Position numbers and translations under genes: made by a program. Under the pieces are notes generated by a model. It was not told the origin of the DNA. It did not search any database and was given only the letters and a program-made list of their open reading frames with translations. A DNA stretch of 64,000 nt from a virus. Location: the IMG/VR virus record IMGVR_UViG_3300036770_000877, positions 40,500 through 104,499 of that record, one strand, 5' to 3'. Positions 33,402 to 46,563 of the stretch are shown here, one piece after another. The number at the start of each line of letters is the position of its first letter. The stretch's first letter is position 1.

Positions 33402-33403
33402 TA

Positions 33404-33715
33404 CTACTTCACCGTCTTCTTAGATGCTGTTTTCTTAGCTGCTGATGTAGACGCTGCTGTCTGTAGTTTCTTTGTTGCTTCTGCAGCAACTGATGTTGCT
33501 ACACGACCAAATGCTGGGTCCTTCTTATTCGCCCAACGGATTAATGTTGGAACGGCAGATGACCAAAGAGCATTTGCTACTAGTAACCATTCAGATGCAC
33601 CAAAATCAACTGGTGATCCGACATTAGCTGTTTGCATTACGATTACAATAGCACCTACTACTTGACCAGCAAGGTTACGTGCATATGAATCTAGCATTGC
33701 TTTATTGATTGACAT
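33404..33715 (-). CDS. Putative holin
   Basis: 2 TM segments, basic C-terminus, directly upstream of endolysin. Confidence 0.7.
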   Translation of the reverse strand: MSINKAMLDSYARNLAGQVVGAIVIVMQTANVGSPVDFGASEWLLVANALWSSAVPTLIRWANKKDPAFGRVATSVAAEATKKLQTAASTSAAKKTASKKTVK

Positions 33716-33774
33716 ATATGTTTTCTCCTTCTAATATCCTCAATGGATATTATATATTGTATCAGATAAATAAA

Positions 33775-33869
33775 AAATGAGCAGTTTACATGGCCATGCT
33801 CAGGGCCCTTATGCCCGCACTAAGCTATCCGCAAGAAAGGTAGAACGGAAAGTAACACGGCGGTGCACA
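33775..33869 (-). ncRNA. Putative sRNA: long hairpin with anti-SD loop plus 3' pseudoknot
   Basis: Own promoter TAGACA-N18-TATAAT (33904-33875); stems GUGC/GCAU, CCGC/GCGG, GUUA/UAGC, UCCGU/GCGGA; loop UCUACCUUUCUU; ends in pseudoknot plus U-tract. Confidence 0.6.
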
Positions 33870-33882
33870 TATTAATTATAGC

Positions 33883-34305
33883 CTATTTTATTTTAATTTG
33901 TCTAGGCTTTTTCTCTTCTGGAATTTCTCTTTTTAGAACTACATAGAGAATTCCATCATTGTAGTCAGCAGAATCTACTTCCCAATACTCCCAAAGAGTA
34001 ATAGTTTTAGCAAACTTCCGAGTTGCAATACCCTTATGTAGGTACTTTGGCTCTTCTTCCTGCTTTTCTTTTTCTCCTGAGATAGTTACAACATCGTCTT
34101 CGATCTTGATGGTTAGCTCGTCCTTTGCAAAACCAGCGGTAGCTAGTTCAAGGACACGAGTATCCTCATCGATTTCTCTGATATTAAATGGCGGGTATGA
34201 ATCCTGCCATGATGTTGCCGTAGTAGTCCATGTTTGATTCCATAACTGATCTACGAACTTGAATGGGTCATAAATGCTGACCATTGAGTTATTGTAATTT
34301 ACCAT
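33883..34305 (-). CDS. Small heat shock protein Hsp20 (IbpA-like)
   Basis: YPPFNI, LATAGF, YLHKGIATRKF, ADYNDGIL, IPEEKKPRQIKI. Confidence 0.92.
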   Translation of the reverse strand: MVNYNNSMVSIYDPFKFVDQLWNQTWTTTATSWQDSYPPFNIREIDEDTRVLELATAGFAKDELTIKIEDDVVTISGEKEKQEEEPKYLHKGIATRKFAKTITLWEYWEVDSADYNDGILYVVLKREIPEEKKPRQIKIK

Positions 34306-35249: not shown

Positions 35250-35780
35250 AGTCATCTAGGGCAAGGAGAATTTCTCTTGCTATCCCGTCGAAATTTATTG
35301 ATCCATTATTAAAATACTTACCTGACTGTATAAGCTTTTGTAGCGTATCAGCTAGATATTGCTGTTTTGTCATATCCCGTCCTCCTAATTTATTAGACGT
35401 AGATAATCAATTATAAGTTATATAGTCATTATTAGCAAAATACTCTATATGCCCTGTTTATTTATATATTGGTATTTTGTTAATAAAATTTTAAATTTTA
35501 CAAAGGTGTTTTCGTATATAGCTATGGGATCCTATTTTGAAAATCCCCCCACCCTTTCCATATTTACCAAAATGTTAGTAAATTTTTAATTTGTATGATG
35601 CAGCATTTTGCGATGTCCGATTTGTCCTAATAGCGAGCACAGATTTGTGAGCAAGGTCACAAAGTTTTTTTTCAAAATGTCCGATTTATCCGTGTTGTCC
35701 CCTTGAAAATGTCAGACCCCTCTGCTAGACTTTAGTCATAGAAAGTTGATAAAGGTTATCAACAAAGAAAGGAAAACAAA

Positions 35781-35993
35781 ATGTTTTCACTAAGTTATAA
35801 AATTCAATCAAAGTCCGAAAGTAATGTGTTCGGCACTTGTCTAGGTGTCGTGTTCGATACCGAACAAAAGGCTTGGTCATATCTTGACCTAGTAGAAAAG
35901 GATAACTACATCCTTGAATGTAATCTAAAAGAATTAGAAAACTACAAGCCTAGCAAGCGTGTAGTATTCGCTACTACTAGAAGTTGGGAGTAA
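35781..35993 (+). CDS. Early hypothetical protein
   Basis: AAGAAAGGAAAA RBS after the first promoter. Confidence 0.75.
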   Translation: MFSLSYKIQSKSESNVFGTCLGVVFDTEQKAWSYLDLVEKDNYILECNLKELENYKPSKRVVFATTRSWE

Positions 35994-35997
35994 TTCA

Positions 35998-36198
35998 ATG
36001 AATGAACAAACTCTACTAACTAAAATGGGTTTCTCTACTCATTCCGCCGTTTCATCTTCTATCGTATCCGATGGGTGGGAGCGTTTTGCCACCTGCTCAA
36101 AATGCGGTTTAGATATATCTGCCTTTTGGGTAGATGATGAAGACCGCCTTAGCGGTTGGTCATCTTGGAAAGCCACTAGTGGCTTATGCCAGGCGTGA
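35998..36198 (+). CDS. Early hypothetical protein (CxxC)
   Basis: ORF track. Confidence 0.6.
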   Translation: MNEQTLLTKMGFSTHSAVSSSIVSDGWERFATCSKCGLDISAFWVDDEDRLSGWSSWKATSGLCQA

Positions 36199-36305
36199 TA
36201 TAAATCACATCCAGCTCTCGGCGTGTCGCCTTGATATTGTCGGGAGTATCTGATAGTATTTACATATACAAATAAATAAATAAGAACCTAAAGAAAGGGG
36301 ACAAA

Positions 36306-36506
36306 ATGTCCGCAAATGTATATTCAATCGAAAACCTATTAGTAGGTAAAACCTATCGCTCAAATAGCCTAACAGGTGAAATAATCTCAGCCGAGCCTCA
36401 CCCTAAAGGTGTATGGTATGAGGGTTGCGATTCCTACTTAGTAGAAATCCGTAATGCTAATGGCGGTTATTCTTATCGCACAATAGCGGTAAAGGTAGGT
36501 GAGTAA
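36306..36506 (+). CDS. Early small beta-rich protein
   Basis: AAGAAAGG RBS; paralog of 39294..39509. Confidence 0.75.
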   Translation: MSANVYSIENLLVGKTYRSNSLTGEIISAEPHPKGVWYEGCDSYLVEIRNANGGYSYRTIAVKVGE

Positions 36507-36508
36507 TA

Positions 36509-36667
36509 ATGAAAATCACTTACTCAATATGGCAGGGCTCTATTATCAAGGGCTCAGGATTCACCGCCTCTAAAATGTCGGAGGTCGCTGATACAATAAA
36601 AGAACTAAACGCAACAGACACTAAACCAAAGTTTGAGGCGTATATTAGCAAAATCGAACAGAACTAA
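36509..36667 (+). CDS. Early hypothetical protein (52 aa)
   Basis: MKITYSIWQG...; below the ORF-track cutoff. Confidence 0.55.
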   Translation: MKITYSIWQGSIIKGSGFTASKMSEVADTIKELNATDTKPKFEAYISKIEQN

Positions 36668-36685
36668 CGAAAGGAAAACTAAAAA

Positions 36686-36850
36686 ATGGAAATACAAATC
36701 GAATTCTCAAAATGGGGTTTTGGTTTTTACTCTGATTTTCTTGCGCTAGATTTTACTTGGGGTTTTCTTGGCTCTCTTGTAGTAATCTATTTCGTAAATA
36801 AAATTCTAAAGCGTAATGAAATAAAATTATTTCGTAAAAGAGTAAAATAA
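36686..36850 (+). CDS. Early small membrane protein (54 aa)
   Basis: GAAAGGAAAA RBS, one TM, basic tail. Confidence 0.6.
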   Translation: MEIQIEFSKWGFGFYSDFLALDFTWGFLGSLVVIYFVNKILKRNEIKLFRKRVK

Positions 36851-36851
36851 A

Positions 36852-37022
36852 ATGATGACTAGAAAAGACTACATCACCGCTGCGGATATTCTAAATCAAG
36901 CATATCCAGAAAATCCCGAACTAATTTTAGAGATGGCTTCTGATTTCTCTGATTATTTCGCAAAGGATAATCCTAGATTTTCCCGCCCTCGATTTTTTGA
37001 GGCAGTAAAAAAGGGCTGGTGA
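36852..37022 (+). CDS. Early hypothetical protein (MTRKDY...DNPRF type)
   Basis: Motif pattern seen in small phage proteins. Confidence 0.65.
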   Translation: MMTRKDYITAADILNQAYPENPELILEMASDFSDYFAKDNPRFSRPRFFEAVKKGW

Positions 37023-37065
37023 GATAACTCACAAAACTGATCGGCGTGTCGCCTTGACAAATCTG

Positions 37066-37089
37066 CGACACGCCCGACAGCGGCGGGCC
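37066..37089 (+). repeat. 24-bp GC-rich repeat CGACACGCCCGACAGCGGCGGGCC, copy 1
   Basis: Identical at 39103 and 40344. Confidence 0.95.
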
Positions 37090-37091
37090 TT

Positions 37092-37107
37092 TCGAACAGA
37101 TGTTCGA
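37092..37107. promoter_or_regulatory. Actinobacterial SOS box (LexA site)
   Basis: TCGAAC-AGAT-GTTCGA, perfect match to TCGAAC-N4-GTTCGA. Confidence 0.8.
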
Positions 37108-37252
37108 TTTAAGAGAGCCCCAAAATGTGGTGTAAATCACAAAACAAAATGTCCGATTTATCCGATTACTGGTCAGTAAATGTCAGTGGTCTATGGTAGG
37201 ATACTAGGTATCAAGATGAGATAAAGGTTATCTCAAAGAAAGGTGGTCTAAA

Positions 37253-37465
37253 ATGGCTACATTAGAAATATTCGAAATGAACGAAAATGGTGCTGGTTGG
37301 GTATCATTAGAAAATGCTTCACAATCTACAAAACTAGATTTGGAATTAGCAATCATAACAAATGCTCCCGTGCAAATGTTGTGCTTCAAATGTCATACAC
37401 CAATTCCAAAAGGAAATGTGTGTTTCAATCATAAAAATGTGAGAGGTGGTATCTACCTTGACTAA
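37253..37465 (+). CDS. Early Zn-finger-like protein
   Basis: AAGAAAGGTGG RBS, CFKC...C..H. Confidence 0.7.
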   Translation: MATLEIFEMNENGAGWVSLENASQSTKLDLELAIITNAPVQMLCFKCHTPIPKGNVCFNHKNVRGGIYLD

Positions 37466-37564
37466 AGATGTTTTTGGATTTGAAAATGCAATTCAATTAG
37501 ACCATTTAACTTTAGAAGAGTTAAAAGAATTAGAAAATATTTTAGAAAAAATAAAATAATTTTT

Positions 37565-37637
37565 GGTGCGTTAGATTAGTGGTTAAATCACTACACTGTC
37601 ACTGTAGAGATCATGGGTTCAAATCCCATACGCATCG
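37565..37637 (+). tRNA. tRNA-Asp(GTC)
   Basis: Acceptor GGTGCGT/ACGCATC, anticodon arm CTACA-CTGTCAC-TGTAG, GGTTCAAATCC; no encoded CCA. Confidence 0.85.
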
Positions 37638-37644
37638 CTAGCTG

Positions 37645-37668
37645 CGACACGCCCGACAGCGGCGGCCC
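37645..37668 (+). repeat. 24-bp GC-rich repeat, copy 2 (1 mismatch)
   Basis: CGACACGCCCGACAGCGGCGGCCC. Confidence 0.92.
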
Positions 37669-37677
37669 TGTGGATAA
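37669..37677 (-). promoter_or_regulatory. DnaA box
   Basis: TGTGGATAA = TTATCCACA on the minus strand, intergenic; second perfect copy at 48052-48060. Confidence 0.55.
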
Positions 37678-37851
37678 CTTTGTCAATACGACACGCCGTA
37701 AAAACGCTGGAAATTTTTGTGATTTCTAACACAATGTGACGCACAACACATGTGATGTGGCTCACAATGTCCGATTTATACCTATTTTCGGCGGGAAAAT
37801 GTCAGTCCCCCCTGCTAGAATTGTGGCATAGAAAAAAGAAAGGATAACTAA

Positions 37852-37980
37852 ATGAAAATTTGTTGCTTCTGCGAAATTGACTTAGATAATGACGCTAAGT
37901 TTTGCTGGAATTGCCTAGAGTATAAAGGCGTAATGTCCGTTGAGGATTTTGAAAAATACTATGGAGAAAGGATTTCCTAA
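37852..37980 (+). CDS. Early Zn-ribbon peptide (42 aa)
   Basis: AAGAAAGGA RBS; CCFC...FCWNC. Confidence 0.65.
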   Translation: MKICCFCEIDLDNDAKFCWNCLEYKGVMSVEDFEKYYGERIS

Positions 37981-38072
37981 TGTCAGATTATCTTGATTAT
38001 CTAGATGAAATCTACGAGGAACTCGTAGACGAATTCGGTCATGAAATTGAAAGTAATTGTATTCATGACTAA
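37980..38072 (+). CDS. Early acidic peptide (30 aa)
   Basis: AGAAAGGA RBS; MSDYLDYLDEIYEELVDEFG. Confidence 0.55.
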   Translation: MSDYLDYLDEIYEELVDEFGHEIESNCIHD

Positions 38073-38171
38073 AATGTGAGGTATCTCACACCGACACTAG
38101 GGGCTAAATCCCCCAAAATGTCAGCCCCCAATGCTAAAATTGTATCCATAAAATAAAGAAAGGAAGTCAAA

Positions 38172-38354
38172 ATGACTTACACGATTAGACTAGAAACCTT
38201 CAATGGTTCAGTATCCAAAATCAACCTACCTTCTAAAGGTGCGGTTGCTCAATTCATCAACACTTATCCAAATCAACTCCCTGTCGGTATTTCCGTCAAG
38301 TTTGATTGCGACTTGCTCGGTGTTCGTGGTGTTCTAAAAGGAAAGGGAAAATAA
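38172..38354 (+). CDS. Early hypothetical protein
   Basis: Promoter at 38119 plus AAGAAAGGAA RBS. Confidence 0.75.
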   Translation: MTYTIRLETFNGSVSKINLPSKGAVAQFINTYPNQLPVGISVKFDCDLLGVRGVLKGKGK

Positions 38355-38355
38355 A

Positions 38356-38547
38356 ATGGAACTTTCTACACTAAATAAAATCAGCGATTTATTCAAGCAA
38401 CTAGAGGAAAAAAGATTTCCTAATAGTTCATCAAATAGCACGACCTCAATGGCTCGACAAATCGGCACAATGTCGGTTTTCGTTTCAGAAAAAAATGCTA
38501 AGCAAATAATTAAAATGTTAGAAAGAGAAATTGGAGAAATTGAATAA
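38356..38547 (+). CDS. Early hypothetical protein
   Basis: ORF track, GAAAGG RBS. Confidence 0.65.
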   Translation: MELSTLNKISDLFKQLEEKRFPNSSSNSTTSMARQIGTMSVFVSEKNAKQIIKMLEREIGEIE

Positions 38548-38699
38548 TGAAAAAAAATGTTTTAATCTCGTATGTTGTAGAGGCTGATACCGACCTATCC
38601 GCTATCTTTGCTTTACAAAAATCCCTGCGCTATTTACCTGATAGCGAATTAATTAAGTTTGACGCTTTCGAAGTTCTAGAAGTAAAGGAAAATAAATAA
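38547..38699 (+). CDS. Early hypothetical protein (50 aa)
   Basis: TAATG coupling on both sides. Confidence 0.6.
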   Translation: MKKNVLISYVVEADTDLSAIFALQKSLRYLPDSELIKFDAFEVLEVKENK

Positions 38700-38968
38700 T
38701 GATTAGCACCGCTCTAAAAATTCAAGACGCAACACAAAAAGCCGTTATGGATGAAAACATAATGAAAATGGCAGGCTTTATTTATACTCATAGAAATGAT
38801 GTTGATGACGAAATGATGGCTAAAATCATTTTTGAATATTCCGCAAATTTATCTGCTCTCGTTGCTACTTTGGTAAGCGAAGCAATTTTATCAGAAACCC
38901 AAATGAAAGAAATGATTTCAGAAATCGAAAGTTTTGAAAAAATTTCTAAAGAAGTTTTAGGAGAATAA
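38699..38968 (+). CDS. Early helical protein
   Basis: ORF track. Confidence 0.7.
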   Translation: MISTALKIQDATQKAVMDENIMKMAGFIYTHRNDVDDEMMAKIIFEYSANLSALVATLVSEAILSETQMKEMISEIESFEKISKEVLGE

Positions 38969-38969
38969 A

Positions 38970-39083
38970 ATGACAACAAATAGAATTTTAACAACGCTGG
39001 TTCAATTAATTTTAGCTGGCGTAACAATTCCACTTTTAATTTTAGCGATTAAAGATTTTAAACACGATCTAAAAAATAGATAG
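38970..39083 (+). CDS. Early single-TM peptide (37 aa)
   Basis: AGGAG RBS, hydrophobic stretch. Confidence 0.55.
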   Translation: MTTNRILTTLVQLILAGVTIPLLILAIKDFKHDLKNR

Positions 39084-39102
39084 TTTAATTTTCAACTAAA
39101 TC

Positions 39103-39126
39103 CGACACGCCCGACAGCGGCGGGCC
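39103..39126 (+). repeat. 24-bp GC-rich repeat, copy 3
   Basis: Exact copy. Confidence 0.95.
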
Positions 39127-39293
39127 TGATTTGTCCGATTTACGGCATTATGTCCGTTTTGCCAGAATTTCCAGATTTTTTTGTGAAATTTATCACACGA
39201 CACGCCGTATCAAAATATGAGATTACTTACGAGTAGGTTGAAAAATGTCAGTGGGTTTTGGTAAACTTGTAGGTATAAAGAAAGGAAAAACTA

Positions 39294-39509
39294 ATGCGTT
39301 CATACTCAATTGTAGATTTGCTAGTAGACCAATACTATGCGCCTACTTCTCTCCGCCGTCGTTTCAACGGAGGTATCATAAACTTTGCGGAAAAGCGTGA
39401 AGATGTCTATTTATCTGAAGGCTATGAAGCCTTCGCTATTCGCTTCCGCCCTACGGGATCTTTTCAAGACCAATGGGCGACAGTTGCCGTCAGGGTTTCC
39501 GACTACTAA
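39294..39509 (+). CDS. Early small beta-rich protein
   Basis: AAGAAAGGAAAA RBS; paralog of 36306..36506. Confidence 0.75.
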   Translation: MRSYSIVDLLVDQYYAPTSLRRRFNGGIINFAEKREDVYLSEGYEAFAIRFRPTGSFQDQWATVAVRVSDY

Positions 39510-39557
39510 ATGTCGGAGGCTTCTGCTAGACTTGTTCTATAAAGAAAGGAAAAGAAA

Positions 39558-39719
39558 ATGTCTGCTATAAAAAGACTAATTGAAAACATACTCGCTTGTG
39601 ATACCTGCTATGGAAAAGGTTTTATGGGTTGGGTTTCTCCAGACGGAGACTATGACTTTGAGTATTGCGATTGTAATCCTCATAACCTAGTTTTGGAAGG
39701 AAGCGAGGTAATTTTCTAA
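39558..39719 (+). CDS. Early Zn-finger peptide (53 aa)
   Basis: Promoter at 39511, RBS, CDTCYGKG...CDC. Confidence 0.65.
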   Translation: MSAIKRLIENILACDTCYGKGFMGWVSPDGDYDFEYCDCNPHNLVLEGSEVIF

Positions 39720-39829
39720 TGGAAATTTTTCTCTGCGATAAATGCGATACTCTCGCCCAAGTATCCCGAATTGGTGATACAATAAAAATAACTAAGTGTG
39801 CTTGCCTAGCACTAGATTGGAAAGACTAA
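39719..39829 (+). CDS. Early Cys-rich peptide (36 aa)
   Basis: CDKC...CAC, TAATG coupling. Confidence 0.5.
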   Translation: MEIFLCDKCDTLAQVSRIGDTIKITKCACLALDWKD

Positions 39830-40038
39830 TGGACTACTTATACTCGCTAACTATCTCCTATGACGGAGAATTGGTTTCAACAACCCGCTCATCGGATTTG
39901 CTAGAAATAGTAAATGCGTGGAATAAATGCGTGGACTTTGGAGATGCTAAAGAATACGCAACCTACAATTTATCAGACCCTAGTGGTAAGATGTATACCA
40001 AGAATTTCTACAGAAATGGAGTAGTAAATGGGAAGTAA
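39829..40038 (+). CDS. Early hypothetical protein
   Basis: Start reassigned to the ATG at the TAATG overlap. Confidence 0.65.
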   Translation: MDYLYSLTISYDGELVSTTRSSDLLEIVNAWNKCVDFGDAKEYATYNLSDPSGKMYTKNFYRNGVVNGK

Positions 40039-40306
40039 TCTATCAACCGAACTATCAAGTGGGCTATTGGATTTGGATTTGGAGCAACAGATAACTATTC
40101 AGTTGCGTTCTAATCATTACCCGCCCGTTCCGTATTCAATGGTTTCAGTTTGTATTGAAGCGATTGACGCATACAACGAAGGCGAACACAATAAAGAAAT
40201 AACTTTGCCTGAAGGCGTAAGTTGGCGTGGAAAAAATTCTGCACCTGCTTATTCAATTATTGACGGGCACCACTTGTGGGATTGGATTATCGAAAGCGAA
40301 TTGTGA
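40028..40306 (+). CDS. Early hypothetical protein
   Basis: QLRSNHYPPVP...HHL motif. Confidence 0.7.
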   Translation: MGSNLSTELSSGLLDLDLEQQITIQLRSNHYPPVPYSMVSVCIEAIDAYNEGEHNKEITLPEGVSWRGKNSAPAYSIIDGHHLWDWIIESEL

Positions 40307-40343
40307 TCTAAATCATAAAAGCTGCGGCGTGTCGACTTGACAA

Positions 40344-40367
40344 CGACACGCCCGACAGCGGCGGGCC
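40344..40367 (+). repeat. 24-bp GC-rich repeat, copy 4
   Basis: Exact copy. Confidence 0.95.
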
Positions 40368-40448
40368 TCAAATGTCCGATTTATGAGCTTTAAGTAGAAA
40401 CGCCGAAATTTTGTGGAATGTCAGTGGGTTATGCTAGACTAGTTTATT

Positions 40449-40583
40449 ATGAGAAAGAAAACGACTGAGGAATTACGGCGACTAATGGAGTTGCGCCGTA
40501 GTAATGCAGCCACGCCTGTAAAAAATAAAAAGGCGTATTCTCGCAAGCGCAAGCATAAATGTCGCCCCTATGGTGTAGAATAA
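40449..40583 (+). CDS. Basic 44-aa peptide with ArfA-like motif
   Basis: Near-leaderless after the promoter at 40419; KNKKAYSRKRKHK. Confidence 0.55.
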   Translation: MRKKTTEELRRLMELRRSNAATPVKNKKAYSRKRKHKCRPYGVE

Positions 40584-40605
40584 AATAAAGAAAGAAAGGT
40601 GCCCC

Positions 40606-41325
40606 ATGAAACTAAAACGCTCTAATGATAGAAAGGTTGCAAATGCAGTCTCAAGAAATGGAAAAACCCCAACAATTGCCAACACTTTTGGATTGCCTGC
40701 TGGAAAAGACTTCTCGTGTCCTGGTGCCACTAGTGTTTGTGAAAGCGTTTGCTATGCAGGAAAACTCGAAAGAGTATACAAGGGAGTAAAGGCTGTCCTG
40801 CTGCATAACTGGGAACTCCTACGCAATGCAGATATGGAAACAATGTCTCTATTGATTGATGAGATGATTGTTGACTTTGTTGCAGATTGTGAGAAAAAGT
40901 CTGCAGATAAATTATTCCGTATCCACTGGGACGGTGATTTCTTCAATGACACTTACGCATACGCATGGAAGGCTGTTATTGCTAATCATCCCGACGTACA
41001 ATTTTGGGTATACACTCGTGTAAAGTCTGCTGCTCTAATTCTAAAAGATATTCCTAACCTATCACTCTATTATTCTACTGATGATGAGAATAAAGAAATT
41101 GCTCATGAACTAAAACTAAATGACGGTATTCGCCTTGCTTATCTAGGAAAAACTTTCGCTGTCACCGAAGACAAAATGAAAGAACTAACTGGCAAGCCTG
41201 GTGCAAAATGCCCTGAGAATGCAAAACGTATTCCGTTGATTTCAACTAACGGTAGCGCATGCGTGTCATGCGGTCTATGCGTTTATGGTAAAGCAGATAT
41301 TCGATTTAGCGCAACTAAAAAATAA
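40606..41325 (+). CDS. GP88-family (radical-SAM-like Fe-S) phage protein
   Basis: FGLPAG..SCPGAT.VC..VCYA, FRIHWDGDFF, FWVYTR, C-terminal CVSCGLC. Confidence 0.75.
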   Translation: MKLKRSNDRKVANAVSRNGKTPTIANTFGLPAGKDFSCPGATSVCESVCYAGKLERVYKGVKAVLLHNWELLRNADMETMSLLIDEMIVDFVADCEKKSADKLFRIHWDGDFFNDTYAYAWKAVIANHPDVQFWVYTRVKSAALILKDIPNLSLYYSTDDENKEIAHELKLNDGIRLAYLGKTFAVTEDKMKELTGKPGAKCPENAKRIPLISTNGSACVSCGLCVYGKADIRFSATKK

Positions 41326-41333
41326 GGAGAAAA

Positions 41334-41447
41334 ATGAAACTATACAATGCATACATGGCCCTGTACTTAGGAAATGAAGAACAACAACAAGCTGCACAAG
41401 AATATCTCGACTCCTTGGAAGAATTAAAAGAAGAGGACCAGGAGTAA
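41334..41447 (+). CDS. Early acidic peptide (37 aa)
   Basis: AAGGAG RBS. Confidence 0.5.
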   Translation: MKLYNAYMALYLGNEEQQQAAQEYLDSLEELKEEDQE

Positions 41448-41686
41448 TTGGGTTACGTATTTGTAGCTTTATCTGTTGGGATCTTCTTGGTCCCCGCCGC
41501 TATAGTTTATTTACTATATAAGAAAAGCTGAGGCCCGCCCCGCATAAAGCGATTTGTCAAATTACGACACTGTGATTTTTCCCACAAAAGTTTTTGAGAA
41601 AATGTCCGATTTGACCCATTTCTAAGTTGCGCTCTGTCGGTCTGAAATGCTAAACTATTATTACCAACAAACGAAAGGAAGCAAAA

Positions 41687-41836
41687 ATGGCTAAGACACC
41701 AAAAATCGGTGAAACCATTACAACTGCTCAGAGCAAAGTTTCTGGCGTTGTAAAGGAAGTCGTAAAGAACCCATCTGGCTCGGTGCGTGTTCGTCTTGAT
41801 GTAGAGGGCGAAACTCGCTGGACTACTATCAAGTAG
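41687..41836 (+). CDS. Early small SH3/KOW-like beta protein (49 aa)
   Basis: Promoter at 41635, GAAAGGAA RBS; paralog of 42449..42631. Confidence 0.7.
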   Translation: MAKTPKIGETITTAQSKVSGVVKEVVKNPSGSVRVRLDVEGETRWTTIK

Positions 41837-41851
41837 TTTATCAGATAAAAC

Positions 41852-41882
41852 TGACCTGAGCAAGTCAATGCTAAACTGCTCA
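41852..41882 (+). ncRNA. Small H-type pseudoknot motif
   Basis: UGAC-CUGAGCAA-GUCA-AUGCUAAAC-UGCUCA; covarying copy at 33807-33778 (-). Confidence 0.6.
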
Positions 41883-41943
41883 CCAAGTTTATTCTGTCGG
41901 TGTGGTCTGATAGAATAGTAATACCAACTAAGAAAGGAAAAAA

Positions 41944-42366
41944 ATGGCAAGAAACGGCAAGGCGATAAATGTAAAAATCGCTACAACCAAAGTAATCAAG
42001 GCACTTGAGGGTGCGTTGGCTAAATTGGAAACTGAGTATGCTTCACAAGAAGCAAACGAGGCTAAGTATGAAAAGGCTCGTAAGGCTTGGGCTAAAGAAG
42101 TGGGTAAGTTAGCACTTGCTCAAATCTCAAAGGCAGAGAACCTAACTGCTTCTAAACGCTACAACAACGAGGTAAATGTTGATTTCAACTTACCTGCTGG
42201 AACTATCGTTCTACCTGATGAACCTAAAAAGGATTTCACCACAATGAACGAGTGGAACTATCGTGAGCAGAAAGAGGAAATTGAGAACGCTATTCGTATT
42301 CTCAAGATGACCGACGAGGAAGTCGTTTCCACTTCAACTTACAACGCTATCGCTAGATACTTGTAA
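41944..42366 (+). CDS. Early helical protein
   Basis: Promoter at 41895, AAGAAAGGAAAA RBS. Confidence 0.8.
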   Translation: MARNGKAINVKIATTKVIKALEGALAKLETEYASQEANEAKYEKARKAWAKEVGKLALAQISKAENLTASKRYNNEVNVDFNLPAGTIVLPDEPKKDFTTMNEWNYREQKEEIENAIRILKMTDEEVVSTSTYNAIARYL

Positions 42367-42448
42367 TCCTGATGGGGGAGGGGTGTTTGACCTCCCCCAC
42401 CAAATCTGATAAACTAAATATAAGCAAACAAAACGAAAGGAAAAACGA

Positions 42449-42631
42449 ATGTCCCCAGTATTCGGAAATAACAGCGATAGTTTCTATCGCAAGGGTGATG
42501 TATTCACAACTGGCAAGTCAGGTATCACAGGTCGCTTGGAGGAAATCGTATCAGTTAGACCAAATCTAACTAAGATTGCTCTACGCACACCTAACAACCA
42601 ACTTCGCTGGGCAATGGTAAAGATTGGCTAA
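42449..42631 (+). CDS. Early small SH3/KOW-like beta protein
   Basis: TTGACC-N17-TAAACT promoter (42387-42415), GAAAGGAAAA RBS. Confidence 0.7.
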   Translation: MSPVFGNNSDSFYRKGDVFTTGKSGITGRLEEIVSVRPNLTKIALRTPNNQLRWAMVKIG

Positions 42632-42797
42632 TCGATAGCCGATAGAAACAGTGGCAGTTTCGGGAATGTTCTCGCCACATGTCTTAAGTAAGAATTCCCA
42701 CCAAATTTCCCCTGGATGATCATGCGGAGTACAAAACAAAAATAGTAGACTCGTCAGAAGACGTCCAGGGGCCCAATTGGGCCACGGTCCATTCGAA

Positions 42798-42837
42798 TGC
42801 AGTCAGCTTGGTTACCTTTCTTTCCAGGCTGGCTGCA
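42798..42837 (+). ncRNA. Hairpin with anti-SD loop UUACCUUUCUUU
   Basis: 14-bp stem with two G-U pairs (plus strand favoured). Confidence 0.6.
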
Positions 42838-42989
42838 AGGCCCGCCCCGCCAAACCACGCTTGTCAAGTTACGACGATGTGATTTTGCCCACTAAAAAAT
42901 GTCCGAATTGCCCTAGTTTGCCAATCTAACTAGACATAGCCCACCTATGTATGCTAGACTTGATAAGTATCCAATAGAAAGGAAAAAAA

Positions 42990-44021
42990 ATGGCTACAAA
43001 TCTCGCTCATAAGCAAGAAGTAGAAAACGGCGATGTGTCGTTTGCTCTTGTTGATTCCCGCTCAAATCCTGCTTGGCACTCTTTTGCCAATAAGGTGTTC
43101 GATTCAGATTCAGGAGATGTTTCAATCTCCGACATAATGAATGGTGCTAAACTATCCAACTGGAATGTCCGTCTTGAAGATGTTGCGCCTCTTGCGCCAC
43201 AACACAATTTCATTACTGATTCATTCCTTGTTGTTCGTGATAACCCAATGACCGATGGTGCTACTGATGTGCTATCTGTTGTCGGTTCTCGCTATAAGGT
43301 TGTTCAGAATGAAGAACTATTCTCATTCGCTGAAAATCTCCACGATGGAAATCCTGATGTAAAGGTTGATTCTGCTGGTTCTCTAAAGCAGGGTCGCATT
43401 GTTTATGGTTCTTGGTCTTTGCCAAATGAACTAATCATTGACCCAAAGGGTGTTGCTGATAAGACAAAACTTTATCTTATCGTTTGGACATCTCACGATG
43501 GTTCTGTTGCTGTTCAAGCAGCAATCACACCTGTTCGTGTTCGTTGCCAAAACACTCTAAACCTTGCGATGAAATCTGCTAAGCAATCTTTCAAGATTCG
43601 CCACACGCAGACCGCAGATGGAAAGATTCTCGCTGCTCGTGAGGCTCTTGGTTTATCTGTTGCTTACTTTGACCAATTCTCAAAGCAGGCTAATGAACTT
43701 TATCAGGCTTCTATTACCGATAAGCAGTTTTCTGACCTTATCCGTAATCTTTACCCAAAGCCTGAAAAAGACGCTAAGGGTGCGTTGAAGAAGTGGGAAA
43801 ATAAGGTTGTCTTGATTGACGAACTTTATCATAACTCACCAACTAACGCAGGAATCAAAGGCACAAAGTGGGGTGCGCTAAATGCTCTAACTGAGCGTTT
43901 GGATTATTTCCGTTCTGCTCGTAAGGGTAATACGGAATCTCTTTCCGCTTCCGCTTCAGGTTTTGACCCTGTTATCACCGCAGAGAAAAATAAAATTCTC
44001 AAAGCGGTTGTCGCATTGTAA
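42990..44021 (+). CDS. DUF932 / phage-plasmid-like protein (TIGR03299 type)
   Basis: PAWH, VGSRYKVVQNEELF, AGSLKQG, TSHDGS, TPVRVRCQNTL, IRHT, GTKWGALNA. Confidence 0.88.
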   Translation: MATNLAHKQEVENGDVSFALVDSRSNPAWHSFANKVFDSDSGDVSISDIMNGAKLSNWNVRLEDVAPLAPQHNFITDSFLVVRDNPMTDGATDVLSVVGSRYKVVQNEELFSFAENLHDGNPDVKVDSAGSLKQGRIVYGSWSLPNELIIDPKGVADKTKLYLIVWTSHDGSVAVQAAITPVRVRCQNTLNLAMKSAKQSFKIRHTQTADGKILAAREALGLSVAYFDQFSKQANELYQASITDKQFSDLIRNLYPKPEKDAKGALKKWENKVVLIDELYHNSPTNAGIKGTKWGALNALTERLDYFRSARKGNTESLSASASGFDPVITAEKNKILKAVVAL

Positions 44022-44030
44022 AATGCTACG

Positions 44031-44060
44031 GGGGCGCAGAAATGCGCCCCCTATTTTTTT
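44031..44060 (+). terminator. Intrinsic terminator
   Basis: GGGGCGCA-GAAA-TGCGCCCC plus T-tract. Confidence 0.8.
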
Positions 44061-44215
44061 GATCTAAAGCTCGGCGTGTTGATTTGACAAAACAAGTTTT
44101 GCGGGGCGGGTCTGACTGTTTATTTTATCATTACGTCACAAGTTAAAAATGCCCTGGAATTTGCAGGATGTCAGTCCCATGGTGTAGTATTGTATTAAGG
44201 ATAGAAAGGTAGATT

Positions 44216-44425
44216 ATGAGTTGGCAATTAGAAGCCAGTTGCAGCGAGGACCAGCATGACTTGTTTTTCTCGCAGGCTAAAGGTAAAATGGATAGAGCAA
44301 TACAAATTTGTGGCTCGTGCTCTGTAAAGGGTGAGTGTCTTAAGTTTGCTATTGATGAAAAAGTAGAGTTCGGCATATTCGGTGGTCTCACACCGCAAGA
44401 GAGGAAAAAGAAATGGCTGATATGA
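44216..44425 (+). CDS. whiB: WhiB-family transcriptional regulator
   Basis: W..EASC...DLFF...ICGSCSVKGECL...FGIFGGLTPQERK. Confidence 0.9.
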   Translation: MSWQLEASCSEDQHDLFFSQAKGKMDRAIQICGSCSVKGECLKFAIDEKVEFGIFGGLTPQERKKKWLI

Positions 44426-44646
44426 CAGACGACCTATTCTCAGATAGAATAGGAGAACATATTTTAGGTGCTATTCAAGTAGATATCGAAGAGCAACTAT
44501 TTGAAGATTGGAATAACTCTAATCTAGATGAAGGCAATCTTTATGCAGAATGGAGATTTTTTGAATTCGCTACACCTGAAATCAAGAAACAATACAACGA
44601 GCACTACGGATATACAGAAGAGGATGAGTATTACTTATCATGCTAG
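44413..44646 (+). CDS. Acidic hypothetical protein
   Basis: ORF track. Confidence 0.65.
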   Translation: MADMTDDLFSDRIGEHILGAIQVDIEEQLFEDWNNSNLDEGNLYAEWRFFEFATPEIKKQYNEHYGYTEEDEYYLSC

Positions 44647-44813
44647 GTTATACTGCAGATGATGTTGAACGTATGATTAATGCGGTTCATGATTCTAAAT
44701 TATTTTATCTTAGATACCCGTCAGACTTAATTGATAAGTCACAGTTACGTGCAGATCTAGAAGATACGGTCAGCTTTTTACAAGGTGTACTAGCCGAGGG
44801 GCACGTCCAATGA
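44640..44813 (+). CDS. Hypothetical protein (57 aa)
   Basis: MLGYTADDVERM..., overlaps the upstream stop. Confidence 0.55.
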   Translation: MLGYTADDVERMINAVHDSKLFYLRYPSDLIDKSQLRADLEDTVSFLQGVLAEGHVQ

Positions 44814-45072
44814 GCACTAGACATAAACAGTGTACACAATGCTATAATGGAAAGTATTACTTTTACAATGGTAAAGACGAACTAGTCGCTATCCCGTGCC
44901 CATTTTGCTAGGAGATAAAATGAGTAAAGAGTTTAAAGAACTTGTTGGAAAAGGCATTCTAGGTTTTTTGGGCCTAGGTGCCATAGTTATATACGTTATC
45001 TACAAAATATTTGTGGCCTAAGTCACACCTATATTCGTTGAATTTGTCCCCGTTAACTGTTAGGATAGATAT

Positions 45073-45282
45073 ATGGAAAAACTAATAGAATATATGAATA
45101 TACATCTTGTCAGTCTTCTGCAAGATTTAGAATCTTTGGAAGAACAAATGGAGCGATTGGATATGAACTCTAAGGACTTTATTGAGTTAGACTTTGAATT
45201 CAATAATATCTCAGGGCAAACCATTGCTACCCGCCACCTAATGTCAGTTGCTCGTGATATCCTAGAAGAACAGAAAGGATAA
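45073..45282 (+). CDS. Acidic helical hypothetical protein
   Basis: Leaderless after the promoter at 45045. Confidence 0.65.
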   Translation: MEKLIEYMNIHLVSLLQDLESLEEQMERLDMNSKDFIELDFEFNNISGQTIATRHLMSVARDILEEQKG

Positions 45283-45284
45283 CA

Positions 45285-45566
45285 ATGATTGAATCAGCCG
45301 AGGCTATCGAACCACGCTTACAGAAACTAGTTGATTTGGGTTGCACTGGTATTGACATAATGCACGGGGAACTCAAGAATCTTATGCTTGAAGCAGAGCA
45401 GGAATATTCTAACTATGTAAAGATTGAAGAAGAAACTGACTATGATGACGCTATGGATTCTATGGAGCGTAAATATTGGGAGGGCATGCTAGACGCATAC
45501 TCCCACATGTATAAAATGACCTACGACCTATCGTTTGCTATTAGTGCTAAGGAGGCAGGAGAATGA
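45285..45566 (+). CDS. Acidic hypothetical protein
   Basis: AGAAAGGA RBS. Confidence 0.7.
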   Translation: MIESAEAIEPRLQKLVDLGCTGIDIMHGELKNLMLEAEQEYSNYVKIEEETDYDDAMDSMERKYWEGMLDAYSHMYKMTYDLSFAISAKEAGE

Positions 45567-45862
45567 AGGCAGGAGACAAAGACAAACTAAATAAATGTTT
45601 AGAGATTCTAGATACAACTGACCTAGGCCTATCATTAGTTTGGCTATGGACATGGAGTACTATCAAGAACTTTATGGAAGATGAAACATTTATCATGAAG
45701 AAAACTGAAGATGAAATGTGGGATTGTCTATGTGAGGCTGTTGAGGCTGGACATGGATTTTCTTTGGAGTATGGAGCAGAACAACATCATGACGACGTAA
45801 TGGAATGGATGTTAAATCGGGAGTACATGGTAGATTCCATGTTTGAAGAGGAAGAGGAATAA
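45563..45862 (+). CDS. Acidic hypothetical protein
   Basis: ORF track. Confidence 0.7.
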   Translation: MKAGDKDKLNKCLEILDTTDLGLSLVWLWTWSTIKNFMEDETFIMKKTEDEMWDCLCEAVEAGHGFSLEYGAEQHHDDVMEWMLNREYMVDSMFEEEEE

Positions 45863-46086
45863 TGTATCACAAACCAATGCTTGAAATACTTGAAGTAGAA
45901 TACTCAGTTTCCCCTGGTGGTGTAGATGAGTTTGAGGTTTATTCATTACATGAAGAAGATGTTATGAATCCCCCGCTATTTACTACCACCGATCTTTTGG
46001 AAGCAGTTCAATTCTGTTATAGTTTAGGAAAAGATTTTGTTGTGCGAACATTAGCAGAGTGGGAAGAAAGACAAATGCTTATCTAA
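45862..46086 (+). CDS. Acidic hypothetical protein
   Basis: ORF track. Confidence 0.65.
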   Translation: MYHKPMLEILEVEYSVSPGGVDEFEVYSLHEEDVMNPPLFTTTDLLEAVQFCYSLGKDFVVRTLAEWEERQMLI

Positions 46087-46167
46087 AGCTGGCGGGTCGG
46101 GTCTGTCTCAAAATATGGACATTACGTACAACTTGAAAAATGCCCTGGAATCCTGTATTATTAAGAT

Positions 46168-46359
46168 ATGACTGAAACAACCCTGGAATATGTGTTAACA
46201 AATAATGATAGATGTGACCGTTGTTCTGCCCAAGCTTTATATTTATGCAAAGGTATTACGGGTGAGCTAATGTTTTGCGGTCACCATTTCAATTCAAATA
46301 AAGAATCATTAACTAACTGGGCTTACGAGATCGTAGACGAGTCCTCTAAAATTTCTTGA
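46168..46359 (+). CDS. Small actinobacterial-type Zn-binding protein
   Basis: DRCDRCSAQA...LMFCGHH. Confidence 0.7.
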   Translation: MTETTLEYVLTNNDRCDRCSAQALYLCKGITGELMFCGHHFNSNKESLTNWAYEIVDESSKIS

Positions 46360-46411
46360 CAATCCGCCCTGAATTTTCTATAATTAATATATAGACAGAA
46401 AGGAGATGCAA

Positions 46412-46534
46412 ATGACAAAGCGAGAGTACCTAGTTTCCCTTGGACAAAAAGTCGGCAAGCGTGGACGTTTTTCCAAAGAGCAGGTAGAATTGATTAAGAA
46501 GGCTGAAGCACAAGGCACAGTTTTCACAAAGTAA
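46412..46534 (+). CDS. Lsr2-like DNA-binding peptide (40 aa)
   Basis: AGAAAGGAG RBS; REYLVSLGQKVGKRGRFS resembles the Lsr2 C-terminal RGR domain. Confidence 0.6.
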   Translation: MTKREYLVSLGQKVGKRGRFSKEQVELIKKAEAQGTVFTK

Positions 46535-46563
46535 ATATCCACTACTAAGAAAGGTAGGCCCCC

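What the first reader, a model, noticed from the sequence alone, without database searches (positions are those of the whole stretch)
33775..33869. Candidate phage sRNA displaying an anti-Shine-Dalgarno loop (16S 3'-tail mimic)
Seen: a ~95-nt minus-strand unit with its own promoter (TAGACA-N18-TATAAT just past the hsp20 stop). It folds into a long hairpin whose G-U pairs favour this strand, with a 12-nt loop UCUACCUUUCUU, and ends in a pseudoknot plus U-tract. The loop is complementary to AAGAAAGG, the RBS of most early-island genes, with 11-nt matches to the whiB RBS (AGAAAGGTAGA, near 44203) and the 46564 gene RBS (AAGAAAGGTAG). Late genes mostly use AGGAG or are leaderless. Known: actinobacterial 16S rRNA ends in ...CCUUUCU. 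Inference: a trans-acting RNA that occludes AGAAAGG-type RBSs, shutting off host and/or early translation while sparing late mRNAs. I do not know of a described system like this.
Basis: partly seen in the sequence, partly recalled or inferred. Interest (0 to 1): 0.88.

Follow-up and report, generated by a model that had tools for sequence, protein, structure and literature searches.

The report
Phage small RNA with anti-Shine-Dalgarno loop
A freshwater phage carries a conserved ~95-base structured RNA whose exposed loop is the exact complement of the ribosome-binding sites of its own early genes; whether it switches those genes off is plausible but untested.

Summary
On the minus strand at 33772-33868 there is a near-consensus promoter, a 58-nt hairpin with an open 12-nt loop (UCUACCUUUCUU), a 30-nt H-type pseudoknot and a U-tract.

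Relatives show that the RNA is real and modular.
- The basal stem covaries.
- The pseudoknot is one copy of a very widespread, uncatalogued "gene-end" pseudoknot. This scan has already met it in other genomes.
- The CCUUUCUU loop stays invariant on at least nine different stems. It occurs in two RNA architectures and two genomic contexts.
- Sister phages replace the loop with UUCG or other sequence, although they use the same early ribosome-binding sites. The loop is therefore accessory.

AAGAAAGG, the loop's perfect complement, occurs 10 times in the window. All 10 are in the plus-strand early region. Two actinobacterial 16S genes read here contain CCUUUCU at their 3' end.

My best reading (about 0.4) is an sRNA, derived from the hsp20 3' UTR or independently transcribed, that pairs with AAGAAAGG-type Shine-Dalgarno sites. 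That mechanism class is already known (6C sRNA, icaR 3' UTR). Rival readings are a purely cis gene-end module, a lysis-gene leader, a protein decoy and an intramolecular contact. I have no expression data.

The parts
33875..33904 (-). Promoter-like site P1: -35 TAGACA (33904-33899, inside the last hsp20 codons), 18-nt spacer, -10 TATAAT (33880-33875)
   Evidence: Scores 11/12 in the scan. TAGGCTATAAT is conserved after the stop codon in all hsp20-linked relatives that carry the GUGC hairpin. The first paired base, G33868, is the 7th nt after the -10.
33772..33868 (-). Whole predicted RNA (~91-97 nt): hairpin, linker, pseudoknot, U6
   Evidence: Sequence. 33778-33868 (hairpin to pseudoknot) is 100% identical in L004, L005 and L008, while flanking hsp20, spacer and holin-like DNA are 82-92% identical.
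33811..33868 (-). 58-nt hairpin: closing stem GUGC/GCAU, a covarying basal stem, an imperfect apical stem
   Evidence: ViennaRNA folds of 7 variants. The basal stem is CCGC/GCGG, CUAAUGAC/GUCGGUUAG, UCUA/UAGA or UUUUC/GAAAA in different relatives.
33833..33844 (-). 12-nt loop UCUACCUUUCUU; invariant core CCUUUCUU = 33840-33833
   Evidence: Mean P(unpaired) is 0.99. The loop is identical in types A and B despite wholly different stems. The core is invariant in 25 unique family members on at least 9 different stems.
33778..33807 (-). H-type pseudoknot. S1 GGCC (33807-33804) pairs with GGCC (33795-33792). L1 is C33803. S2 UGAGCA (33802-33797) pairs with UGCUCA (33783-33778). L2 is U33796. L3 is AUGUAAAC (33791-33784).
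   Evidence: Scan of the genome. S1 covaries: GGCC/GGCC versus GGAC/GUCC in relatives. Family-wide, the S1 pairs are 98-99% paired with four Watson-Crick types and 0/500 shuffles reach the score. The middle of S2 covaries with no non-complementary case.
33766..33777 (-). U-tract UUUUUUAUUUAU directly after S2
   Evidence: A U-rich tail follows in most members of the sRNA subfamily. The generic terminator scan does not call it, because the S2 'loop' is 13 nt.
33756..33764 (-). Second promoter-like element: extended -10 TGATACAAT, for the holin-like gene
   Evidence: TGATA(C/G)AAT is conserved in types A, B and C while its surroundings diverge.
33734..33750 (-). Small hairpin at the start of the holin-like 5' UTR (AUAUCC AUUG AGGAUAU)
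   Evidence: It covaries with GUGUC UAAG GACAC in type C relatives.
33883..34305 (-). hsp20 gene, immediately upstream
   Evidence: PF00011, E = 3.5e-18.
33404..33715 (-). 103-aa holin-like membrane protein, followed by the CHAP + PG_binding lysin (32604-33401)
   Evidence: ORFs. The 103-aa protein has no Pfam hit, so 'holin' is inferred from its position and hydrophobic stretch.
41852..41882 (+). Second copy of the pseudoknot motif (UGAC C UGAGCA A GUCA AUGCUAAAC UGCUCA), after a 49-aa ORF and before the next early promoter
35765..46554 (+). Candidate targets: 10 perfect AAGAAAGG sites starting at 35765, 36291, 37236, 37836, 38156, 39278, 39542, 40592, 41930 and 46547, plus the whiB RBS AGAAAGGUAGA at 44203-44213
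   Evidence: 13 sites on both strands against 3.66 expected, and 0/100 shuffles reach 13.. Predicted duplex energies are -9.2 (consensus), -16.0 (whiB) and -17.0 (gene 46564) kcal/mol.

Best explanation
The element is a phage small RNA of about 95 nt, built from three modules.
1. A hairpin with a conserved closing stem and a freely varying body.
2. An exposed loop with the invariant core CCUUUCUU. This is the same sequence as the 3' tail region of actinobacterial 16S rRNA.
3. A 3' module made of a generic 'gene-end' H-type pseudoknot plus a U-tract. It probably fixes and shields the 3' end.

The RNA would be made from its own sigma-70-type promoter, which overlaps the end of hsp20. It would probably also arise as the tail of hsp20 transcripts, that is, as a 3'-UTR-derived sRNA.

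Proposed action: the loop pairs with AAGAAAGG-type Shine-Dalgarno sites. These are typical of this phage's early genes, and the longest matches are at whiB and gene 46564. Pairing would compete with the 30S subunit and lower translation of those mRNAs, while GGAG/AGGAG-type late mRNAs pair poorly.

Shown: the RNA's structure and conservation, loop invariance, complementarity, and the split in RBS usage. Inferred: transcription, its timing, pairing in vivo, and repression.
For: Structure and selection:
- 33778-33868 (hairpin to pseudoknot) is 100% identical where the flanks are 82-92% identical.
- The basal stem and pseudoknot S1 covary.
- L003 has flanks 93-96% identical to the window, yet its stems are entirely replaced while the 13-nt loop is unchanged.

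Loop:
- CCUUUCUU is invariant in 25 unique RNAs on at least 9 stems. These span two architectures and two genomic contexts: after hsp20, and upstream of a DUF932-like gene.
- In the second architecture 13 base pairs show compensatory changes around invariant loops.
- Because the loop recurs away from hsp20 and the lysis genes, a trans role fits better than a cis role.

Transcription signals: a -10 box lies 6-7 nt before the first paired base in the hsp20-linked architecture, and 6 nt before it in the one second-architecture locus I read by eye (L215).

Accessibility and targets:
- Loop P(unpaired) is 0.99.
- There are 10 perfect AAGAAAGG sites, all in the plus-strand early island.
- (A)GAAAGG RBSs precede 12/24 early ORFs against 3/127 others.
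- Predicted duplexes are -9.2 to -17 kcal/mol for early sites and about -5.5 for hsp20 and late AGGAG sites.

16S tail: CCUUUCU was read in two actinobacterial genomes.

Precedent: chaperone-independent pairing through pyrimidine-rich loops in Actinobacteria, 6C sRNA (PMC6486639).
Against: - There is no expression evidence.
- The loop is dispensable. Type C relatives cap the same stem with UUCG or CCCAGGGG, and L241, L254 and L262 carry other sequence. Type C, L254 and L262 still show AAGAAAGG-type early RBSs; L241 showed none on the early strand in the piece held.
- The loop is invariant, so loop-target covariation cannot be tested. whiB relatives found were all near-identical.
- Eight A/U-rich base pairs are a weak, generic interaction, and global repression would need high RNA levels.
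- The P1 promoter looks constitutive, so a late-specific switch is not evident.
- In the second architecture a GAAAGG-containing loop in the same RNA could occupy the loop in cis.
- The match between loop and RBS could simply reflect that both mirror the host 16S tail.
Confidence: 0.4

Rival explanations
1. A purely cis-acting gene-end module. The RNA would be the structured 3' UTR of hsp20. The pseudoknot and U-tract set and protect the 3' end, the hairpin is a variable stability spacer, and the CCUUUCUU loop has no trans target.
For: - The pseudoknot is a generic module found just after stop codons in hundreds of phages and in many prokaryotic genomes.
- In L213, L289 and L302, hsp20 is followed directly by a short hairpin plus the same pseudoknot, with no promoter.
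- L019 and L020 have the pseudoknot downstream of hsp20 without any CCUUUCU loop.
- The hairpin body is hypervariable and the loop is missing in several sister lineages.
Against: - A spacer would not keep a 13-nt loop identical while both stems are replaced.
- The same core loop recurs in a different RNA architecture at a different locus.
- TATAAT is conserved exactly 6 nt before the first paired base.
Confidence: 0.25
2. A leader or attenuator of the lysis cassette. P1 would drive a short terminated transcript just upstream of the holin-like and endolysin genes, as with lambda PR'-6S RNA-tR'. Read-through, or protection of the downstream mRNA by the pseudoknot, would time lysis. The loop could mask the holin-like SD in cis.
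For: - The element lies directly upstream of the holin-like gene and the CHAP lysin.
- In L254 the pseudoknot is followed after 12 nt by the holin-like RBS, with no U-tract or second promoter, so there the RNA is the leader.
- The loop can form 5-6 bp with the holin-like RBS, predicted -8.0 kcal/mol.
Against: - An extended -10 (TGATACAAT) and a covarying 5' hairpin lie between the U-tract and the holin-like RBS in types A to C.
- RNAs with the same loop occur far from any lysis genes.
- Type C has the same holin-like RBS type but no loop.
- No antiterminator was looked for.
Confidence: 0.1
3. A decoy that mimics the 16S 3' tail for a protein rather than for mRNA. The protein could be a nuclease or toxin that attacks the anti-SD region, or a pyrimidine-binding factor such as ribosomal protein S1.
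For: - The loop shares the 7-mer CCUUUCU with the 16S 3' end read in two actinobacterial genomes.
- It is presented on a stable, probably nuclease-resistant scaffold.
- From my own knowledge, not tested here: some MazF toxins of mycobacteria cut the anti-SD region.
Against: There is no partner gene or candidate protein. The resemblance covers only 7 nt and lacks the CCUCC part of the anti-SD. This is entirely inferential.
Confidence: 0.1
4. The loop is an intramolecular or structural contact, such as a kissing loop or tertiary dock, needed for the RNA's own fold. It would not be a targeting seed.
For: In the two-hairpin architecture, the invariant loop 1 (UUCAUGAAAGG) is complementary to invariant loop 2 (CUUUCAUCCUUUCUU) over 6-8 nt. 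The invariant AAGGG before the pseudoknot could pair with CCUUU.
Against: The window's RNA has no GAAAGG loop, and none is found elsewhere in the window. The AAGGG overlaps pseudoknot stem S1, so the two pairings exclude each other. Both loops are invariant, so no covariation supports the contact.
Confidence: 0.1

Closest known systems
6C sRNA of Mycobacterium/Actinobacteria (PMC6486639), and the C-rich-loop sRNAs of Firmicutes such as RsaE (PMC6158497)
   Same: A small RNA that displays pyrimidine-rich single-stranded hairpin loops. These loops pair with purine-rich ribosome-binding regions of several mRNAs without a chaperone.
   Different: No sequence or structure homology, since Rfam gives no hit. 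The RNA is phage-encoded, the loop is U/C-mixed and equals the extreme 16S 3' tail, there is a single loop, and the 3' end is a pseudoknot rather than a plain terminator.
icaR mRNA 3' UTR anti-SD motif of Staphylococcus aureus (PMC3868564)
   Same: An anti-SD-like pyrimidine motif located in the 3' UTR of a protein-coding gene that pairs with a Shine-Dalgarno region.
   Different: icaR acts in cis on its own 5' UTR. Here the hsp20 RBS is a poor match (-5.7 kcal/mol) and the best matches lie in other genes.
Widespread phage 'gene-end' H-type pseudoknot, unnamed and absent from Rfam; noted earlier in this scan (e1-5867220, e1-5955828, e1-5976585, e1-6033022)
   Same: The 3' module at 33778-33807 has every feature of it: covarying S1, one-base L1 = C, S2 UGAGCA/UGCUCA, one-base L2, and an L3 ending in AAAC.
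   Different: Typical copies start about 5 nt after a stop codon. This one lies about 75 nt after the hsp20 stop, behind an inserted promoter and hairpin. It belongs to a subfamily with AAGGG before S1 and a longer L3 (AYGUAAAC).
Coremin motif / xrRNA-C of plant and other RNA viruses (PMC10520033, PMC10321173)
   Same: A short 4-bp hairpin whose loop starts with a required C and is followed by ...UUAAAC..., with a loop-to-spacer pseudoknot. The published motif blocks a 5'-3' exonuclease and ribosomes.
   Different: The coremin loop obeys YGAD/YGNNAD, and its loop-spacer pairing is non-canonical or only 3 bp. It needs a second hairpin. The phage motif has a 6-bp Watson-Crick S2, a CUGAGCAN loop and no second hairpin. 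No nuclease test exists for it.
Lambda PR'-6S RNA-tR' late leader
   Same: A strong promoter, a short structured terminated transcript, then the lysis genes.
   Different: No Q-like antiterminator was identified. A second promoter lies between the RNA and the holin-like gene. There is no sequence similarity.

Membership tests
Trans-acting SD-occluding sRNA (functional class: 6C, RsaE and similar) | A discrete transcript with its own start and end | tested here: inconclusive
   There is a conserved 11/12 promoter whose -10 lies 6 nt before the first paired base, and a pseudoknot plus U6 at the end. No RNA data were available.
Trans-acting SD-occluding sRNA (functional class: 6C, RsaE and similar) | A single-stranded pyrimidine-rich seed that is conserved | tested here: met
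   P(unpaired) is 0.99. CCUUUCUU is invariant on at least 9 stems.
Trans-acting SD-occluding sRNA (functional class: 6C, RsaE and similar) | Complementarity to the ribosome-binding sites of target mRNAs beyond chance | tested here: met
   There are 10 perfect AAGAAAGG sites, all in the early island, and 13 sites against 3.66 expected overall. Two sites match over 11 nt. Both loop and sites may simply mirror the 16S tail.
Trans-acting SD-occluding sRNA (functional class: 6C, RsaE and similar) | Demonstrated repression of targets | not testable with these tools
   This needs reporters or toeprinting.
6C sRNA (Rfam) or any other Rfam family | A match to the covariance model | tested here: not met
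   cmscan of the window at gathering thresholds finds only tRNAs. A scan of 33600-34000 at E <= 10 gives only a chance snoRNA hit.
Widespread gene-end H-type pseudoknot (unnamed) | S1 of 3-6 covarying bp ending in C-G; L1 = C; S2 UGNNCA/UGN'N'CA; L2 of 1 nt; L3 ending in AAAC | tested here: met
   The window copy reads GGCC C UGAGCA U GGCC AUGUAAAC UGCUCA.
Widespread gene-end H-type pseudoknot (unnamed) | Begins a few nt after a same-strand stop codon (stop to L1 distance at least 9 nt, mode 9) | tested here: not met
   This copy starts about 75 nt after the hsp20 stop. The second copy, at 41852, starts 15 nt after its ORF's stop. In L020 the same hsp20 context has it 10 nt after the stop.
Coremin / xrRNA-C | hp1 loop consensus YGAD or YGNNAD, and an obligatory second hairpin | tested here: not met
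   The loop here is CUGAGCAU and no conserved hp2 follows. Criteria are from PMC10520033.
Coremin / xrRNA-C | Resistance to a 5'-3' exoribonuclease | not testable with these tools
   This needs RNase J or Xrn1 digestion assays.
Canonical intrinsic terminator | A G+C-rich stem with a 3-8 nt loop, followed by a U run | tested here: not met
   The terminator scan does not call it. S2 is 5-6 bp with a 13-nt 'loop', although U6 follows. Elsewhere the motif is followed within 6-25 nt by a tRNA or an RBS, so there it is read through.

The most novel reading that the evidence does not exclude
A family of phage small RNAs uses a nuclease-resistant pseudoknot scaffold to display a copy of the host 16S rRNA 3' tail. 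These RNAs would act as soluble 'anti-Shine-Dalgarno' competitors. By titrating AAGAAAGG-type ribosome-binding sites they would switch translation from early (and host) messages to GGAG-type late messages. The swappable hairpin cassette would let related phages retarget or drop the function.
Probability: 0.25. Interest if true: 0.85.

Novelty: new variant of a known kind. Interest (0 to 1): 0.6.

Why it matters
If the loop does occlude early-gene ribosome-binding sites, this would be an RNA-only way for a phage to time its gene expression at the level of translation. It would exploit the fact that early and late genes pair with different parts of the 16S tail.

Apart from function, the work defines an uncatalogued, modular family of phage RNAs, built as promoter, variable hairpin cassette and generic pseudoknot. 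It also adds a new use for the widespread gene-end pseudoknot, as the 3' scaffold of small RNAs.

Both ideas can be tested directly with reporters in model actinobacteria and with in-vitro nuclease assays.

Tried and rejected
- Rfam: no family fits.
- Cultured-phage DNA search: blastn of 32600-34900 found nothing. The 106-nt element alone hit only the pseudoknot in two crAss-like phages, plus chance matches.
- Coding readings: the 32-aa plus-strand ORF (33777-33875) and a 16-codon minus-strand ORF starting at ATG 33870 are not conserved once the stems are replaced in types B and C (read by eye). Rejected.
- tRNA or tRNA-like: ARAGORN finds none here. CCA follows the pseudoknot in only 17/129 copies. 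Not supported.
- Stop-codon read-through or frameshift signal for the pseudoknot: the in-frame position of its UGA is not consistent (54/40/32). Not supported.
- Pseudoknot as a complete terminator: rejected as a general role, because many copies are followed within 6-25 nt by a tRNA or an RBS.
- DNA-level palindrome or operator: rejected, because S1 covaries and the motif is strand-specific.
- Loop-target covariation through whiB relatives: only near-identical loci were found, so it is uninformative.
- Short peptide next to bacterial copies of the pseudoknot: no Pfam or NCBIfam match.
- A GAAAGG-loop partner in this window: none found.
- Literature: no paper in the library holds the motif sequence in a phage context or describes a phage 16S-tail mimic.

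Full report
**Setting.** The window is bases 40500-104499 of a 104.5-kb IMG/VR virus record, about 85% complete. The element lies on the minus strand. Upstream is hsp20 (33883-34305; PF00011). Downstream are a 103-aa membrane protein with no Pfam hit, which I call holin-like from its position, and a CHAP + PG_binding lysin. The phage encodes WhiB (PF02467), which points to an actinobacterial host.

**Observation.**
- TAGACA-N18-TATAAT (33904..33875) scores 11/12, joint best of 12 promoter-like sites in 3 kb.
- The -10 ends 6 nt before G33868, the first base of a 58-nt hairpin (33868-33811).
- The hairpin's 12-nt loop is UCUACCUUUCUU (33844-33833).
- Downstream come a 30-nt H-type pseudoknot (33807-33778: GGCC C UGAGCA U GGCC AUGUAAAC UGCUCA) and U6.
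- The single-sequence folding energy is unremarkable (z = -0.49). No Rfam family matches. The case for structure rests on relatives.

**Relatives of the hsp20 locus.** Searching IMG/VR with Hsp20 gave 80 loci. Reading downstream of hsp20 shows three versions of the RNA.
- Type A (the window, L001, L002, L004-L012) is identical over the RNA from hairpin to pseudoknot (33778-33868). Measured in L004, L005 and L008, the flanking hsp20, spacer and holin-like DNA are only 82-92% identical.
- Type B (L003, L016, L017) has entirely different stems (GGGG/CCCC and CUAAUGAC/GUCGGUUAG) but the same 13-nt loop. L003's flanks are 93-96% identical to the window, so the hairpin body behaves as a swapped cassette with the loop retained.
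- Type C (L013-L015, L018) keeps type A's apical stem but caps it with UUCG or CCCAGGGG.
- L241, L254 and L262 carry other inserts.

All versions share the closing stem GUGC/GCAU, a covarying basal stem, GCAU-AAGGG and the pseudoknot. The pseudoknot's S1 changes GGCC/GGCC to GGAC/GUCC. The box TAGGCTATAAT after the stop codon is conserved in all of them.

**The pseudoknot is a generic module.**
- A second copy lies at 41852-41882 (+), after a 49-aa ORF.
A stricter pattern hit more than 119 prokaryotic genome contigs, from Saccharibacteria to Methanobrevibacter.
- In 129 unique viral contexts, S1 is at least 3 bp in 123 and L2 is one base in 117.
- In a 110-sequence alignment, the two central S1 pairs are 98-99% paired using all four Watson-Crick types. 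No shuffle out of 500 reaches the covariation score.
- Where the middle of S2 differs, it is always complementary: AA/TT, GA/TC, AC/GT, AT/AT, GC/GC and a G.U case. None is non-complementary.
- Copies sit just after same-strand stop codons, with a sharp minimum of 9 nt from the stop to the L1 base (mode 9).
- Many copies are followed within 6-25 nt by a tRNA gene or an RBS, so the motif is read through and is not in general a full terminator.
- Two crAss-like phages carry it. In cr124_1 it lies directly 5' of a tRNA, and in cr7_1 at the equivalent site ahead of the primase gene.
- Earlier agents of this scan reached the same description on other genomes and pointed to the plant-virus coremin motif. 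From the two coremin papers, the layout is alike: a 4-bp hairpin, a required C as first loop base, a ...UUAAAC spacer, and loop-spacer pairing. The loop consensus and the obligatory second hairpin are not met (PMC10520033, PMC10321173).

I take the pseudoknot to be a nuclease or ribosome roadblock, or an end-fixing module. That role is inferred and untested.

**A wider sRNA family.** Searching for the subtype AAGGGNCCTGAGCA..CAYGTAAAC gave 123 hits, 73 of them unique. Besides the hsp20 context there is a second context. It lies between a gene of about 140 aa and a gene starting MAHDLETQNG..REPAWHGLG (DUF932-like, identified from memory and not tested).

One architecture in that context has two hairpins.
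- A 17-sequence alignment shows 13 base pairs with compensatory changes.
- Two loops are invariant: UUCAUGAAAGG and CUUUCAUCCUUUCUU.
- L215, the one locus I read by eye for this, has a TATAAT 6 nt before the first hairpin.

Further variants (L169 group, L276) display UUCAUCCUUUCUUUC or UUCUUAUUCCUUUCUUUU on yet other stems. Overall, CCUUUCUU is invariant in 25 unique RNAs on at least nine stems. Another architecture in the same context lacks it and has a UAGUAGGGGGCUACUA hairpin instead.

The recurrence of the loop at a locus unrelated to hsp20 or lysis genes is my main reason to prefer a trans role.

**Targets.**
- AAGAAAGG occurs 10 times on the plus strand, all between 35765 and 46554. Counting both strands there are 13 sites against 3.66 expected, and none of 100 shuffles reaches 13.
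- A crude gene list shows (A)GAAAGG before 12 of 24 plus-strand ORFs in 35.7-48.8 kb, plus whiB and the 49-aa ORF, against 3 of 127 elsewhere. Other genes use GGAG, GAGG or AGGAG.
- The whiB RBS (AGAAAGGUAGA, 44203-44213) and the RBS of gene 46564 (AAGAAAGGUAG) extend the match to 11 nt.
- Predicted duplex energies are -9.2 (consensus), -16.0 and -17.0 kcal/mol. This compares with -8.0 for the holin-like RBS, -5.7 for hsp20 and -5.4 for a late AGGAG site. The loop is unpaired with probability 0.99.
- The 16S genes of a 1.3-Mb Actinobacteria MAG and of Nocardia nova both read ...GGAUCACCUCCUUUCUA at the 3' end of the gene. The loop therefore copies the tail 7-mer.

**Limits.**
- Type C relatives, L254 and L262 lack the loop but use AAGAAAGG-type early RBSs. 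The loop is accessory, and the loop-RBS match may only reflect the shared host 16S tail.
- The loop never varies, so loop-target covariation cannot be tested. whiB relatives were too close to help.
- In the two-hairpin architecture the GAAAGG loop could pair with the CCUUUCUU loop in cis. No such partner exists in this window.
- In L254 the pseudoknot is followed after 12 nt by the holin-like RBS. There the RNA is a leader.
- In types A to C a conserved TGATACAAT and a covarying 5' hairpin separate the U-tract from the holin-like RBS.
- In L213, L289 and L302 the pseudoknot follows hsp20 with no promoter. The module therefore probably began as the hsp20 3' end, and the promoter-plus-hairpin form is derived.
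- No expression data could be obtained.

**Verdict.**
- The RNA is real (about 0.9).
- The anti-SD mechanism is the best single reading, at about 0.4.
- A purely cis gene-end module stands at 0.25.
- Lysis leader, protein decoy and intramolecular contact stand at about 0.1 each.

The mechanism class is known: 6C sRNA (PMC6486639) and the icaR 3' UTR (PMC3868564). New here would be a phage-encoded 16S-tail copy aimed at the phage's own early RBS type, mounted on an exchangeable cassette with a pseudoknot 3' scaffold. I found no description of this in the library searched.

Noticed in passing
window 41852-41882 (+): A second copy of the gene-end pseudoknot (UGAC C UGAGCA A GUCA AUGCUAAAC UGCUCA). 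It starts 15 nt after the stop of a 49-aa ORF, and a TGTCGG..TAGAAT promoter-like site follows about 12 nt downstream.
   Followed up: yes
L094-L212 (IMG/VR) and L309-L427 (prokaryotic genomes): The pseudoknot keeps a sharp minimum of 9 nt between the upstream stop codon and its one-base loop 1. G is almost absent in the 4 nt after it. It often sits 6-12 nt before a phage tRNA gene, frequently tRNA-Asp.
   Followed up: partly
L329, L331, L339, L341, L346, L355, L377, L397, L400, L417, L418 (bacterial MAG contigs): In diverse bacteria the UGA inside pseudoknot stem S2 is the stop codon of a roughly 20-aa ORF, M[KR]R[YF]x[IV]PRxAHC[SD][ED]GCxxxS. Its variation pattern looks like that of a coding sequence. 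In several of these loci (for example L397, L417, L418) an intrinsic terminator-like hairpin follows. There is no Pfam or NCBIfam match.
   Followed up: partly
window 34334-34360 (-), hsp20 5' UTR: The inverted repeat TTGGCACTC-N9-GAGTGCTAA is one mismatch from the CIRCE consensus, and several relatives have the perfect TTAGCACTC. In L014, L015 and L018 the arms change to AGTGGCA/TGCCGCT while keeping complementarity. This suggests either an RNA hairpin or a changed operator.
   Followed up: partly
window 35700-48800 (+) versus the rest of G000: Early-island genes use AAGAAAGG-type ribosome-binding sites, which pair with the extreme 16S 3' tail. Structural and late genes use GGAG, GAGG or AGGAG, which pair with the inner anti-SD. 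The two gene sets are cleanly split by RBS type.
   Followed up: yes
L215, L219, L221, L224, L229 and others (alignment A2): A two-hairpin sRNA architecture upstream of a DUF932-like gene has two invariant and mutually complementary loops, UUCAUGAAAGG and CUUUCAUCCUUUCUU, on strongly covarying stems. It ends in the same pseudoknot subtype.
   Followed up: partly
L214, L216, L218, L223, L226 and others: A third architecture at the same locus has a hairpin UAGUAGGGGGCUACUA with a G-rich loop and covarying stem. A degenerate first pseudoknot and then the standard pseudoknot follow in tandem.
   Followed up: no
L003 versus window 33778-33868: L003's flanking genes are 93-96% identical to the window, but the sRNA hairpin stems are completely replaced. 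L004-L012, with flanks about 90% identical, have an identical sRNA. The sRNA cassette therefore does not follow the phylogeny of its flanks, which suggests exchange by recombination.
   Followed up: partly
L428 (crAss-like phage cr124_1, NC_055899.1 17866-19098): About 500 nt without an annotated gene precede the pseudoknot and two tRNA genes. The stretch contains a tRNA-like T-arm and acceptor end (GGGTTCGAATCCCTAC..AGCCA), so it may be a larger non-coding RNA.
   Followed up: no
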